From the NCBI RefSeq assembly GCF_035084215.1, contig NC_090354.1, positions 5,952,001 to 6,016,000 of the forward strand: a stretch of DNA of 64,000 bases, given 5' to 3'. The notes below the pieces were generated by a model. The model was given only the letters and a program-made list of their open reading frames with translations, did not search any database and was not told where the DNA came from. Position numbers and translations under genes: made by a program. This document shows, piece after piece, positions 39,353-43,149 of the stretch (positions are counted from its first letter, which is position 1; the number at the start of each line of letters is the position of its first letter). This DNA is from Heptranchias perlo. Its lineage: Eukaryota.

Positions 39353-39479
39353 TTTTTTTTTTATTCGTTCACGGGATGTGGGCGTCGCTGGCAAGGCCGG
39401 CATTTATTGCCCATCCCTAATTGCCCTCGAGAAGGTGGTGCTGAGCCGCCTTCTTGAACCGCTGCAGCCCGTGTGGTGA
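39353..39479 (-). mobile_element. 5'-truncated inverted copy of the same element's 3' end with poly(A)
   Basis: Reverse complement of 42651-42776 with about 6-7 differences; T-run at 39353-39362. Confidence 0.92.
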
Positions 39480-42400
39480 GGTACGGTAGCATAGTGGTTA
39501 TGTTACTGGGCTAGTAATCCAGAGGCCTGGACTAAAAAAATCCAGAGTCATGAGTTCAAATCCCACCACGGCAGCTGGCGAATTTAAATTCAATTAATTA
39601 ATTAAATTCAATTAATTAAATAAAAATCTGGAATTAAAATACTAGTACCAGTGATGAAGCTACCGGATTGTCGTACAAACCCATCTGGTTCACTAATGCC
39701 CTTTAGGGAAGGAAACCTGCCGTCCTTACCCGGTCTGGCCTATATGTGACTTCAGACCCACAGCAATGTGGTTGATTCTTAATTGCCCTCTGAAATGGCC
39801 GAGCAAGCCACTCAGTTGTAAAATCTCGCTACGAAAAGTCATAATAAGAATAAAACCGGACGGACCACCCGGCATCGGACACAACAACGGCAAAACACCA
39901 AGCCCAGTCGACCCTGCAAGGTCCTCCTGACTAACATCTGGGGACTTGTGCCAAAATTGGGAGAGCTGTCCCACAGACTAGTCAAGCAACAGCCTGACAT
40001 AGCCATACTTACAGAATCATATCTTTCAGCCAACGTCCCAGACTCTTCCATCACCATCCCTGGGTATGTCCTGTCCCACCGGCAGGACAGACCCACCAGA
40101 GGTGGCGGTACAGTGATAGACAGTCAGGAGGGAGTGGCCCTGGGAGTCCTCAACATTGACTCTGGACCCCATGAAATCTCATGGCATCAGGTCAAACATG
40201 GGCAAGGCAACCTCCTGCTGATTACCACCTACCGTCCTCCCTCAGCTGATGAATCAGTCCTCCTCCATGTTGAGCACCACTTGGAGGAAGCACTGAGGGT
40301 AGCAAGGGCACAAAATGTACTCTGGGTGGGGGACTTCAATGTCCATCACCAAGAGTGGCTCGGTAGCACCACTACTGACCGAGCTGGCCGAGTCCTGAAG
40401 GACATAGCTGCTAGACTGGGCCTGCGGCAGGTGGTGAGCGAACCAACACGAGGGAAAAACTTACTTGACCTTGTCCTCACCAATCTCCCTGTCGCAAATG
40501 CATCTGTCCATGACAGTATTGGTAGGAGTGACCACCGCACAGTCCTCGTGGAGATGAAGTCCCGTCTTCGCACTGAGGACACCATCCAACGTGTTGTGTG
40601 GCACTACCACCGTGCTAAATGGGATAGATTCAGAACGGATCTAGCAGCTCAAAATTGGGCATCCATGAGGCGCTGTGGGCCATCAGCAGCAGCAGAATTG
40701 TATTCCACCACAATCTGCAACCTCATGGCCCGGCATATTCCTCACTCTACCATTACCAACAAGCCAGGGGATCAACCCTGGTTCAATGAGGAGTGTAGAA
40801 GAGCATGCCAGGAGCAGCACCAGGCGTACCTAAAAATGAGGTACCAACCTGGTGAAGCTACAACTCAGGACTACATGCATGCTAAACAGCGGAAGCAACA
40901 TGCTATAGACAGAGCTAAGCGATTCCACAACCAACGGATCAGATCAAAGTTCTGCAGTCGTGAATGGTGGTGGACAATTAAACAACTAACGGGAGGAGGA
41001 GGCTCTGCAAACATCCCCATTCTCAATGATGGCGGAGTCCAGCACGTGAGTGAAAAAGACAAGGCTGAAGCGTTTGCAACCATCTTCAGCCAGAAGTGCC
41101 GAGTGGATGATCCATCTCAGCCTCCTCCCGATATCCCCACCATCACGGAAGCCAGTCTTCGGCCAATTCGATTCACTCCACGTGATATCAAGAAACGGCT
41201 GAGTGCACTGGATACAGCAAAGGCTATGATCCCCGACAACATCCCAGCTGTAGTGCTGAAGACTTGTGCTCCAGAACTAGCTGCGCCTCTAGCCAAGCTG
41301 TTCCAGTACAGCTACAACACTGGCATCCACCCGACAATGTGGAAAATTGCCCAGGTATGTCCTGTCCACAAAAAGCAGGACAAATCCAATCCGGCCAATT
41401 ACCGCCCCTTCAGTCTACTCTCAATCATCAGTAAAGTGATGGAAGGTGTCGTCGACAGTGCGATCAAGCGGCACTTACTCACCAATAACCTGCTCACCGA
41501 TGCTCAGTTTGGGTTCCGCCAGGACCACTCGGCTCCAGACCTCATTACAGCCTTGGTCCAAACATGGACAAAAGAGCTGAATTCCAGAGGTGAGGTGAGA
41601 GTGACTGCCCTTGACATCAAGGCAGCATTTGACCGAGTGTGGCACCAAGGAGCCCTAGTAAAATTGAAGTCAATGGGAATCAGGGGGAAAACTCTCCAGT
41701 GGCTGGAGTCATACCTAGCACAAAGGAAGATGGTAGTGGTTGTTGGAGGCCAATCATCTCAGCCCCAGGGCATTGCTGCAGGAATTCCTCAGGGCAGTGT
41801 CCTAGGCCCAACCATCTTCAGCTGCTTCATCAATGACCTTCCCTCCATCATAAGGTCAGAAATGGGGATGTTCGCTGATGACTGCACAGTGTTCAGTTCC
41901 ATTCGCAACCCCTCAGATAATGAAGCAGTCCGAGCCCGCATGCAGCAAGACCTGGACAACATCCAGGCTTGGGCTCATAAGTGGCAAGTAACATTCGCGC
42001 CAGATAAGTGCCAGGCAATGACCATCTCCAACAAGAGAAAGTCTAACCACCTCCCCTTGACATTCAACGGCATTACCATCGCCGAATCCCCCACCATCAA
42101 CATCCTGGGGGTCACCATTGACCAGAAACTGAACTGGACCAGCCATATAAATACTGTGGCTACGAGAGCAGGTCAGAGGCTGGGTGTTCTGAGGCGAGTG
42201 ACTCACCTCCTGACTCCCCAAAGCCTTTCCACCATCTACAAGGCACAAGTCAGGAGTGTGATGGAATACTCTCCACTTGCCTGGATGAGTGCAGCTCCAA
42301 CAACACTCAAGAAGCTCGACACCATCCAAGATAAAGCAGCCCGCTTGATTGGCACCCCATCCACCACCCTAAACATTCACTCCCTTCACCACCGGCGCAC

Positions 42401-42776
42401 TGTGGCTGCAGTGTGTACCATTCACAGGATGCACTGCAGCAACTCGCCAAGGCTTCTTCGACAGCACCTCCCAAACCCGCGACCTCTCCCACCTAGAAGG
42501 ACAAGAGCAGCAGGCACATGGGAACAACACCACCTGCACGTTCCCCTCCAAGTCACACACCATCCCGACTTGGAAATACATCACCGTTCCTTCATCGTCG
42601 CTGGGTCAAAATCCTGGAACTCCCTTCCTAACAGCACTGTGGGAGAACCGTCACCACACGGACTGCAGCGGTTCAAGAAGGCGGCTCACCACCACCTTCT
42701 CGAGGGCAATTAGGGATGGGCAATAAATGCTGGCCTCGCAACGACGCCCACATCCCGTGAACGAATTTAAAAAAAA
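39480..42776 (+). mobile_element. Near full-length non-LTR retrotransposon (CR1/L2-group-like) with tRNA-derived 5' head, single EN+RT ORF and poly(A) tail
   Basis: A box TAGCATAGTGG 39487-39497 and B box GTTCAAATC 39554-39562. Long ORF ends at 42713. AATAAA at 42722 and A-tail to 42776. Confidence 0.93.
39822..42713 (+). CDS. Retrotransposon ORF2: APE endonuclease + reverse transcriptase (open frame; ORF track starts it at GTG 39948, 921 aa)
   Basis: EN motifs TNIWGL, LTESYL, YRPP, GDFN, LDLVLT, SDH. RT motifs NYRP.SLLS, QFGFR, ALDIKAAFDRVWH, GIPQGSVLGP, FADD, ILGV. No stop between 39822 and 42711. Confidence 0.93.
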   Translation, partial: NLATKSHNKNKTGRTTRHRTQQRQNTKPSRPCKVLLTNIWGLVPKLGELSHRLVKQQPDIAILTESYLSANVPDSSITIPGYVLSHRQDRPTRGGGTVIDSQEGVALGVLNIDSGPHEISWHQVKHGQGNLLLITTYRPPSADESVLLHVEHHLEEALRVARAQNVLWVGDFNVHHQEWLGSTTTDRAGRVLKDIAARLGLRQVVSEPTRGKNLLDLVLTNLPVANASVHDSIGRSDHRTVLVEMKSRLRTEDTIQRVVWHYHRAKWDRFRTDLAAQNWASMRRCGPSAAAELYSTTICNLMARHIPHSTITNKPGDQPWFNEECRRACQEQHQAYLKMRYQPGEATTQDYMHAKQRKQHAIDRAKRFHNQRIRSKFCSREWWWTIKQLTGGGGSANIPILNDGGVQHVSEKDKAEAFATIFSQKCRVDDPSQPPPDIPTITEASLRPIRFTPRDIKKRLSALDTAKAMIPDNIPAVVLKTCAPELAAPLAKLFQYSYNTGIHPTMWKIAQVCPVHKKQDKSNPANYRPFSLLSIISKVMEGVVDSAIKRHLLTNNLLTDAQFGFRQDHSAPDLITALVQTWTKELNSRGEVRVTALDIKAAFDRVWHQGALVKLKSMGIRGKTLQWLESYLAQRKMVVVVGGQSSQPQGIAAGIPQGSVLGPTIFSCFINDLPSIIRSEMGMFADDCTVFSSIRNPSDNEAVRARMQQDLDNIQAWAHKWQVTFAPDKCQAMTISNKRKSNHLPLTFNGITIAESPTINILGVTIDQKLNWTSHINTVATRAGQRLGVLRRVTHLLTPQSLSTIYKAQVRSVMEYSPLAWMSAAPTTLKKLDTIQDKAARLIGTPSTTLNIHSLHHRRTVAAVCTIHRMHCSNSPRLLRQHLPNPRPLPPRRTRAAGTWEQHHLHVPLQVTHHPDLEIHHRSFIVAGSKSWNSLPNSTVGEPSPHGLQRFKKAAHHHLLEGN

Positions 42777-42811
42777 GGTTCTCCCTGATTAATGTCCCAG
42801 CTCACAAAGCT

Positions 42812-42910
42812 CCAAATTTATTGAATTCAATTTCAGAACTTACCGTGGTGGGATTTGAACTTGTGACCTCTAGATTGCTAGTCCAGTACCATAACCACTA
42901 GGCCACCATG
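42812..42910 (-). mobile_element. tRNA-derived head of a related SINE/LINE, opposite orientation
   Basis: TGGCCTAGTGGTTATGGTACTGGACTAGCAATCTAGAGGTCACAAGTTCAAATCCCACCACGG, similar to 39483-39571. Confidence 0.8.
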
Positions 42911-43149
42911 TCCCTAAAATAAGAAAAATAAAACCTTACATCTTTCAATAAAAGAGAGAGTATCATGCAGTTTATTTAAAATAACTGCTGAAATGGGATT
43001 TGGGGATTCTCAATTCTACATCAGGGAGATTTAATACAGGGTCCTCTGTACCCATTAAAAGAACAAAACAATAAAGTAGGACTTGTGTTAATGATTTAAC
43101 CAACGCAAACTTTGCATGGACTTCCTAAGGACTCATCTTGGAGGAAATT

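What the first reader, a model, noticed from the sequence alone, without database searches (positions are those of the whole stretch)
39480..42776. Candidate autonomous Pol III-transcribed LINE: tRNA head, EN/RT ORF and no TTTT terminator in 3.3 kb
Seen: the element starts with a tRNA-like head (A box TAGCATAGTGG 39487, anticodon-like arm CTGGG-CTAGTAA-TCCAG, B box GTTCAAATC 39554). A leader of only about 300 nt follows with no room for ORF1, then an uninterrupted endonuclease+RT frame and a poly(A) tail. Reading line by line I found no run of four T on the sense strand from 39480 to 42776, only about 8 TTT, while AAAA runs are common and flanking DNA is full of TTTT. A rough estimate with T near 0.21 (by eye) predicts about 5 such runs. 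Established: A/B-box tRNA heads define non-coding Pol III SINEs, vertebrate Pol III stops at T4 or longer, and LINEs are normally Pol II transcripts. Inference: this is a protein-coding retrotransposon under selection to be read by Pol III, an 'autonomous SINE', whose uncapped RNA would need non-canonical translation.
Basis: partly seen in the sequence, partly recalled or inferred. Interest (0 to 1): 0.9.

Follow-up and report, generated by a model that had tools for sequence, protein, structure and literature searches.

The report
SINE-headed shark LINE with IRES-like leader
This is a copy of a shark-and-ray jumping gene (Zenon) that codes for its own copying enzyme yet starts with the tRNA-type promoter of a non-coding SINE, avoids that polymerase's stop signal, has no normal start codon, and carries a small tRNA-mimicking RNA fold where translation would have to begin, so it may be a protein-coding gene made by RNA polymerase III and translated without a cap.

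Summary
Observation confirmed. The element is a copy of elasmobranch Zenon, a published ORF1-less CR1-group LINE (PMC13343379). The head is integral: 32 of 39 fetched copies start at it and 7 are 5'-truncated. All 5 published elasmobranch Zenon-1 consensuses start with it, but the paper never mentions tRNA or a promoter.

Sense-strand T3+ runs are 0.29 of expectation, against 0.67-1.54 in 55 related ORFs. T4 = 0 alone is not significant against codon shuffles (P about 0.08).

New here: the ORF has no in-frame AUG before residue 245, past the endonuclease. Just upstream, a 7-nt anticodon-like loop (AGC) can pair with an in-frame GCU, the geometry of pseudoknot I of dicistrovirus IRESs. The nearest invertebrate relatives (one lineage) keep this with different stems; 0 of 33 other relatives do. 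That rule was drawn up after seeing the fold.

Best reading (0.5): Pol III makes uncapped RNA that is translated from this tRNA mimic. There is no polymerase, cap or translation data. This scan noted the head and T-run features before in other genomes; my look-up found no note of the fold.

The parts
39480..39570 (+). tRNA-derived head with A box (39487-39497), anticodon-like arm (39506-39522), a second similar hairpin (39527-39545) that widens the A-B spacing, and B box (39552-39563); 5' end of the element
   Evidence: 32 of 39 copies start within 9 nt of it; same head in 12 of 21 oldest-subfamily copies and 5 of 5 published Zenon-1 consensuses
39571..39789 (+). Non-coding leader. Its 3' ~130 nt is nearly invariant across elasmobranchs; candidate ribosome-binding domain (inferred; structure not solved). 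It holds upstream AUGs whose frames are not kept between species
   Evidence: one search read by eye
39790..39815 (+). Anticodon-stem-loop mimic: stem 39796-39799 / 39807-39810 (extends to 39790 / 39815), 7-nt loop 39800-39806 with AGC in the anticodon position. The window copy has G at the second loop base where most copies have T
   Evidence: closing-pair probability 0.94-0.95 in family majorities
39816..39831 (+). 12-nt variable linker, then GCT(A) at 39828-39831: the in-frame codon that can pair with the loop (proposed pseudoknot). The next codon, 39831-39833, would be the first one decoded
   Evidence: GCT in 73 of 85 anchored copies while linker and next codon differ between subfamilies
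39822..42713 (+). Single stop-to-stop frame of 963 aa: basic N-terminal arm, APE endonuclease (about 39933-40544), RT (about 41373-42119). First in-frame ATG at 40554, after the endonuclease
42714..42776 (+). 3' UTR with AATAAA (42722-42727) and poly(A) tail (42769-42776); shared with short head-plus-tail derivatives
39353..39479 (-). Left flank: 3' tail of another copy of the same family on the minus strand, 94% identical; the element is inserted into it
42777..42910 (-). Right flank: rest of the interrupted minus-strand repeat, with an older tRNA-like head; the junction is blunt or has a 3-4 nt overlap, no clear target-site duplication
   Evidence: (Rfam tRNA 22.9 bits, E 0.17)

Best explanation
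[quoted passage not shown] (1) Shown: the head is the fixed 5' end. (2) Shown: sense-strand T runs are depleted. (3) Inferred: Pol III reads 3.3 kb, runs through the A tail and stops at the first T4+ in the flank (43390 for this copy), giving uncapped RNA. (4) Shown: no in-frame AUG precedes the endonuclease. (5) Inferred: a pseudoknot, in which an anticodon-like loop (AGC) pairs with a downstream in-frame GCU, occupies the ribosome as pseudoknot I of a dicistrovirus intergenic IRES does, so elongation starts at the next codon with no cap or initiator tRNA. (6) Established for LINEs: the EN/RT protein binds the 3' tail and inserts copies by target-primed reverse transcription. (7) Inferred history: the fold is older than the head, since invertebrate relatives have it without head or T-run depletion. 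Cap-independent translation would have let the LINE survive capture of a Pol III head. SINE-like head-plus-tail repeats then arose repeatedly by internal deletion.
For: Head integral: 32 of 39 copies start at nt 1-9, 7 are truncated, none shows a longer shared 5' end. The oldest subfamily, 86% identical over the 5' 800 nt, has the same start in 12 of 21 copies and keeps both boxes. 5 of 5 published Zenon-1 consensuses start with it, some with a textbook B box; hagfish and coelacanth Zenons lack it and show T4+ within 400 nt. T runs: T3+ observed/expected 0.29 against mean 1.04, sd 0.17, minimum 0.67 in 55 related ORF regions, none of which has zero T4. Same-genome CR1 ORFs have 8-12 T4+ runs (10 of 10) and Tx1-like ORFs 2-10. 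No T4 in any of four age-class majorities. Phe 1.96%, lower than all 108 homologues; Phe codons 3 TTT to 16 TTC. ORF maintained: 24 synonymous to 10 non-synonymous codon differences between mid-age and young majorities. Fold: found in young and old majorities and in L200 and L206, with unrelated stems but the same AGC:GCT pair, 34-39 codons before the endonuclease Asn; 0 of 33 other relatives; 0.5-2.1% of leader shuffles give any hit. Frame from GCT kept in 62 of 70 rows and 15 of 23 old copies (lengths from coordinates).
Against: No ChIP, cap, RACE or translation data. T4 = 0 is not significant against codon shuffles or a Markov model (P 0.07-0.10). The pseudoknot rule was drawn up after seeing the cases, and rests on two lineages (L200 and L206 are about 80% identical to each other). 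No Rfam IRES family matched, and I could not assign the other two pseudoknots of a full dicistrovirus IRES. In SquAca_Zenon-1 the GCT is one base out of frame with the arm (by eye; may be a consensus error in an A-run). L200 and L206 each have an in-frame ATG, though at different places. An AUG in the +1 frame lies just downstream of GCT in all five published consensuses (ATA here). The tail has AATAAA, which Pol II would also use. 3.3 kb is long for a Pol III transcript (recalled).
Confidence: 0.5

Rival explanations
1. Pol II makes the master RNA, from read-through or from a Pol II activity of the head. The head is a captured SINE kept as 5' UTR or RNA structure, and T runs are avoided for another reason (RT slippage, RNA decay signals, pairing with the A tail). 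The fold may still start translation.
For: LINEs are normally Pol II transcripts (PMC5786205 passages). AATAAA and poly(A) are present. T4 = 0 alone has P 0.07-0.10 in the conservative models.
Against: Those other causes should act on CR1, Tx1-like and related Zenon-like ORFs too, and these show no such depletion. Copies begin precisely at the tRNA 5' end. A and B boxes are kept across sharks and a ray while the hairpin between them changes sequence.
Confidence: 0.17
2. Division of labour: Pol III RNA is the abundant template for insertion, as for a SINE, but the protein comes in trans from rare Pol II read-through mRNAs of the same family.
For: It explains the head and the T-run depletion without needing translation of uncapped RNA. 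Short head-plus-tail derivatives that must be mobilised in trans exist (85 exact pattern hits).
Against: Purifying selection on the ORF along one ladder-like lineage is easier to keep if the copied RNA supplies its own protein. The start-codon problem remains for any mRNA.
Confidence: 0.15
3. Pol III transcription, but translation starts by another route: termination-reinitiation after the short upstream frame (ATG GCC TAG in young copies), a near-cognate start, or a shift from the overlapping +1 frame. The loop-codon match is then incidental or serves another role.
For: A +1 frame from an ATG at element nt 293 is open for about 71 codons in young and old majorities, and a second +1 AUG is present in five species. 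AUG-independent reinitiation is reported for L1 ORF2 (recalled; paper not held).
Against: The start-stop ATG is GTG in the oldest subfamily, and the ACG candidate is ACA or AAA in older ones. Non-CpG differences between species in the arm are mostly silent in the main frame, not the +1 frame (6 against 1, counted by eye). I saw no conserved slippery heptamer. RhiTyp_Zenon-1 has a 1-nt shorter linker yet keeps the frame from GCT.
Confidence: 0.17
4. The head is a chance neighbour: a SINE lying next to a 5'-truncated LINE.
For: The window copy does sit inside another repeat of the same family.
Against: 32 of 39 copies in unrelated flanks start at the same bases; the same holds in five other species.
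Confidence: 0.01

Closest known systems
Elasmobranch Zenon (CarCar, HypSab, RhiTyp, ScyCan, SquAca Zenon-1; Stuart et al. 2026, PMC13343379; also the 'CR1-Zenon like LINE' of the whale shark preprint 10.1101/443036)
   Same: Same family: 3.2-3.3 kb, no ORF1, poly(A) tail, and the same head and leader over the first 400 letters that I could see.
   Different: Nothing in sequence class. The main text has 0 hits for tRNA, promoter, polymerase, start codon or translation, so head, T-run depletion, missing AUG and fold are not remarked there.
tRNA-derived SINEs with LINE-derived 5' and 3' parts (Bov-tA, SINE2-1_ACar, WALLSI2; Kojima 2018, PMC5786205)
   Same: Pol III head joined to LINE sequence; tail recognised by the LINE protein.
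   Different: Those are short and non-coding; the paper states that SINEs cannot encode a protein. Here the head leads a maintained EN/RT frame, and the short forms look like deletion products of the long one.
Lepidopteran Zenon and its internally deleted derivative Persaeus (PMC6740152)
   Same: Single ORF, poly(A), internal-deletion derivatives. The RT of Zenon-1_Hmel matches P0004/P0005 by eye, which are 32% identical to this ORF.
   Different: Persaeus has no tRNA homology and no Pol III promoter.
Dicistrovirus intergenic-region (type 6) IRES, pseudoknot I
   Same: Anticodon-codon mimic directly before a non-AUG frame, as described in PMC3894237, which asks whether non-LTR elements might hold such IRESs.
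   Different: Only the pseudoknot-I-like part is identified. No Rfam match. Pseudoknots II and III not found. It sits in a 5' leader, not between two ORFs.
Known shark SINEs: SacSINE1 (Deu), HE1 (V), CmiSINEs (CORE); MetaSINEs
   Same: tRNA head with A and B boxes in cartilaginous fish or other animals.
   Different: They are non-coding, with L2 or HER1 partners where known. The Meta-type bodies printed do not resemble this leader by eye; the others were not aligned here.

Membership tests
Zenon (CR1 group) | Single ORF with APE endonuclease and RT; no ORF1 | tested here: met
   definition from PMC13343379
Zenon (CR1 group) | Poly(A) tail, unique to Zenon among CR1-group elements | tested here: met
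Zenon (CR1 group) | RT groups with Zenon, apart from canonical CR1 | tested here: inconclusive
   Tree of 20 rows: with Zenon-like P0004/P0005 at 86/83 (below the starred level), apart from the genome's own CR1. No named reference set was in the tree
Zenon (CR1 group) | Sequence identity with named elasmobranch Zenon consensuses | tested here: met
   First 400 letters of each match head, leader and arm by eye; lengths 3244-3314 against 3319 here. The rest of each cell was cut
tRNA-derived SINE (SINE2) | 5' tRNA-derived head with A and B boxes | tested here: met
tRNA-derived SINE (SINE2) | Short, non-coding, non-autonomous | tested here: not met
   3.3 kb with a maintained 968-codon frame. The short derivatives do meet it
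tRNA-derived SINE (SINE2) | Transcribed by RNA polymerase III | not testable with these tools
   Indirect only: T-run depletion. No raw RNA reads were listed
Type 6 (dicistrovirus IGR) IRES | Pseudoknot I: anticodon-like loop paired to an in-frame codon just before a non-AUG frame | tested here: met
   Pairing potential and conservation only; rule made after the fact; structure not probed
Type 6 (dicistrovirus IGR) IRES | Pseudoknots II and III ribosome-binding domain; match to the Rfam model | tested here: inconclusive
   No IRES family at E <= 5 or E <= 2; a conserved ~130-nt leader is present but its fold is unresolved
Type 6 (dicistrovirus IGR) IRES | Factor-independent 80S assembly and initiation | not testable with these tools
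   needs biochemistry
HDV-like ribozyme leaders of R2/RTE/L1Tc (recalled) | Match to HDV-like ribozyme families | tested here: not met
   no such Rfam hit

The most novel reading that the evidence does not exclude
Elasmobranch Zenon is a protein-coding gene transcribed end to end by RNA polymerase III and translated without cap, AUG or initiator tRNA through a cellular-genome counterpart of the dicistrovirus tRNA-mimicking IRES. The IRES arose first in an invertebrate Zenon lineage and allowed a LINE to adopt a SINE promoter. Its SINE-like offspring come from deleting the ORF, the reverse of the usual model of SINE origin.
Probability: 0.45. Interest if true: 0.95.

Novelty: new variant of a known kind. 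Interest (0 to 1): 0.86.

Why it matters
The textbook split is that LINEs are Pol II and coding while SINEs are Pol III and non-coding; Kojima 2018 writes that SINEs cannot encode a protein. A family that has kept a Pol III head on a working EN/RT frame across sharks and a ray would break that split and give a natural long Pol III mRNA. How ORF2 of non-LTR elements starts translation is an open question, and PMC3894237 names dicistrovirus-type IRESs in non-LTR elements as an untested possibility. The AGC:GCU pair makes this testable with two point mutants. The family also offers a worked example of SINE-like repeats born by deletion from a headed LINE, and a compact 3.3-kb element of possible use as a gene-delivery or IRES tool. 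Young copies are 0.9-2.3% from their majority and several keep the full frame, so assays are feasible.

Tried and rejected
Chance SINE neighbour: rejected.

ATG at element nt 322 as the ancestral start: rejected. A TAG follows two codons later in all subfamilies, and the oldest has GTG.

ACG as start: not conserved.

RNA-modification signature at the variable TAG base: rejected. TpA sites vary on both strands and the same is seen, weakly, in CR1.

Upstream 31-34-codon frame as ORF1: its frame differs between species (by eye).

Selection against new T4 runs among copies: 0 of 43 T4-creating sites reached 8% frequency, but neither did 158 non-CpG A4-creating sites, so the test has no power.

Target-site duplications: none convincing among the 35 copies with an intact 3' end; 5 of the 40 examined were 3'-truncated.

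Overall folding of the 5' 481 nt is only modestly better than shuffles (z -1.94); head, tail and ORF-start pieces are not better.

RNA evidence: no RNA holder listed. The four runs laid were contigs; they cover all 30 bins in organisms A-D and show head-to-tail joins, but give no start, strand or cap.

An L2 control could not be fetched: PF09004 gave no match. Viral contigs gave no relatives. One search was aimed at the wrong end of an old copy and returned mid-ORF matches, which I used only as age-graded copies. Full-length copies of the oldest subfamily were not obtained; only their 5' ~800 nt were examined.

Two recalled papers (Pol III-made functional mRNA; AUG-independent L1 ORF2 translation) were not held.
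Full report
OBSERVATION. The stretch 39480-42776 begins with a tRNA-like head (A box 39487, anticodon-like arm 39506-39522, B box 39552-39563), carries one stop-free frame of 963 aa (39822-42713) and ends in A8. Pfam finds an APE endonuclease (aa 38-241) and an RT (aa 518-766). The sense strand has 0 T4+ runs, 8 T3 runs and 19 A4+ runs; the T4-free stretch is four times the next longest on that strand of the window. The head is not a tRNA gene. The copy is inserted in a minus-strand repeat of the same family, without a clear target-site duplication.

THE HEAD BELONGS TO THE ELEMENT. A search of the 3.25-Gb own genome with the ORF start gave 1766 candidates, of which 40 were scored. I fetched all 39 non-self hits: 32 start within 9 nt of the head's first base, 7 are 5'-truncated, none shows a longer shared 5' end, and 28 are full length. 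The majority of those 28 plus the window copy is 3319 nt, with 7 T3 runs, no T4 and a 968-codon frame; copies differ from it by 0.9-2.3%. Older copies form one ladder-like lineage. In the oldest subfamily (21 of 23 pattern hits examined, 5' ~800 nt only), 12 reach the same start, both boxes are kept, and the majority is 86% identical to the young one. Short head-plus-tail repeats exist with many different junctions (85 exact hits; more among 30 of 141 hits). I read this as repeated internal deletion of the long element (inference).

WHAT FAMILY. The protein's closest full-length relatives are 32-42% identical. In a 20-row RT tree it falls with Zenon-like proteins at 86/83, below the starred level, and apart from this genome's canonical CR1. 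Stuart et al. 2026 (PMC13343379; I saw the abstract, passages, section 13 and supplement rows) describe elasmobranch Zenon as ORF1-less with a poly(A) tail, in five species. Their Zenon-1 consensuses for white shark, stingray, whale shark, catshark and dogfish are 3244-3314 nt. The first 400 letters, all that the tool shows, begin with this head and continue with this leader. The two hagfish Zenons and the coelacanth Zenon do not have the head and show T4+ runs within 400 nt. The main text has no hit for tRNA, promoter, polymerase, start codon or translation. So the family is known, and its odd anatomy is not remarked in what I could read.

T-RUN DEPLETION. T4 = 0 has P 0.011 against base shuffles, 0.087 against a Markov model, 0.073-0.086 against synonymous-codon shuffles and 0.0025-0.010 against a composition-driven model. 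T3+ runs are depleted in all four models (P 0.035 or less). The controls are clear: the ratio observed/expected is 0.29 here and 0.67-1.54 (mean 1.04) in 55 related ORF regions, none with zero T4, although most of them are richer in T. Ten of ten CR1 ORFs of the same genome have 8-12 T4+ runs, and Tx1-like ORFs have 2-10. A, C and G runs show no such gap. No age-class majority has a T4. Phe is 1.96%, below all 108 homologues. Oligo-T is the Pol III terminator (established knowledge), so head plus depletion point to Pol III. This is inference; the RNA tools gave only contigs.

NO START CODON. The first in-frame ATG is residue 245, after the endonuclease. An in-frame ATG at element nt 322 is followed by TAG two codons later and is GTG in the oldest subfamily. 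The frame is nonetheless maintained: 24 synonymous to 10 non-synonymous codon differences between mid-age and young majorities. The comparisons with the oldest copies are noisier, 56 to 49 and 11 to 9. Length variants between leader and endonuclease keep the frame in 62 of 70 rows (one locus counted twice) and in 15 of 23 old copies; part of this may come from 3-nt and 15-nt repeats.

A tRNA MIMIC AT THE FRAME START. Just upstream lies a hairpin with a 7-nt loop, C-U-AGC-A-A in most copies, shaped like an anticodon loop (closing-pair probability 0.94-0.95). Twelve nt after the extended stem comes GCU-A, in frame. Anticodon AGC reads codon GCU. Among 85 anchored copies, AGC is in place in 75 and GCT in 73, while the linker and the next codon differ between subfamilies; some of the misses look mis-anchored and several are CpG or TpA decay. 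Loop and GCTA are present in all five published Zenon-1 consensuses. By eye, GCT is in frame with the basic arm in four; in the whale shark this holds despite a linker one base shorter, and in the dogfish it is off by one. The two nearest relatives from metagenome contigs (L200, L206; 38-42% protein identity, about 80% identical to each other, leaders unalignable to the shark's) have 11-12-bp stems of different sequence, 7-nt loops with AGC, and an in-frame GCT 34 codons before the endonuclease Asn; the shark values are 35 and 39. None of the other 33 relatives with an intact ORF start meets the rule, and 0.5-2.1% of leader shuffles give any hit. The rule was written after I saw these cases. 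[quoted passage not shown] Against: no Rfam IRES match, no upstream pseudoknots assigned, in-frame ATGs in L200 and L206 (not shared between them), and a conserved +1-frame AUG in the five published consensuses. L200 and L206 have no A/B boxes and no T-run depletion, which suggests that the fold came before the head.

VERDICT. Member of elasmobranch Zenon. It works, most likely, like a SINE in transcription and like a dicistrovirus IRES in translation. My odds: Pol III transcription in some role about 0.8; the fold setting the start about 0.65; both, in cis, 0.5.

LITERATURE COVERAGE. Ten searches listed no paper describing a Pol III-headed coding LINE. None was aimed at IRES or pseudoknot terms; one search included non-AUG. 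Repbase, Dfam and subscription journals were not searchable. Seen as passages: PMC5786205, PMC11481361, PMC3894237, PMC10294476, PMC3747384, PMC13431491 and 10.1101/443036 (supplement closed; it may bear on the whale shark Zenon). PMC4824008: passages, section 9, supplement part 1. PMC5499810: part 2 of 6. PMC6740152: passages and supplement hits. Recalled only: Pol III-made translatable mRNA, AUG-independent L1 ORF2, HDV-like ribozyme leaders; the label 'Tx1-like' is mine from recall. Six earlier AI notes of this scan report the head and T-run features in other genomes. They are not independent support. A look-up for the fold found no note.

Noticed in passing
copies L031-L099, L141-L169, L211-L240: TpA dinucleotides are about as mutable as CpG in young copies, on both strands and with transversions (T in CTA 0.066, A in TAG 0.051; CpG contexts 0.03-0.07). 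This looks like a genome-wide TpA mutation process. One search listed no shark paper on it.
   Followed up: partly
3' ends of L054, L081, L083, L095, L096, L098; window 42765-42776: Several copies have T3-T5 just before the A tail. This could be stepwise TpA mutation, or a built-in Pol III terminator as in polyadenylated T+ SINEs (recalled).
   Followed up: no
window 39353-39479 and 42777-42910, minus strand: The host repeat joins an old tRNA-like head to a young tail (94% identical to the element), so it is a chimera or a nested insertion.
   Followed up: partly
window about 39766-39982: A +1 frame from an ATG overlaps the ORF start for about 71 codons and is open in young and old majorities; a second +1 AUG is present in five other species. 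It could be a regulatory overlapping frame.
   Followed up: partly
L100, L101 (G000 C38, C13; more on C725, C1626, C424): A two-ORF Tx1-like LINE with intact 1311-1319-aa ORF2 occurs in head-to-tail arrays spaced about 7 kb apart; it may be target-specific.
   Followed up: no
L243-L252: A young canonical CR1 family with many open frames of about 990 aa; used here only as a control.
   Followed up: no
window about 43140-43650: Another tRNA-headed repeat on the plus strand that resembles the Deu-type SacSINE1 (resemblance from recall, not tested).
   Followed up: no
L273-L351: Many bacterial and archaeal MAGs in the genome collection hold eukaryotic LINE contigs, most likely host contamination.
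   Followed up: no
L058: One young copy has lost both short upstream stops and reads open from the ATG at element nt 322 (977-aa frame); probably private mutations.
   Followed up: no
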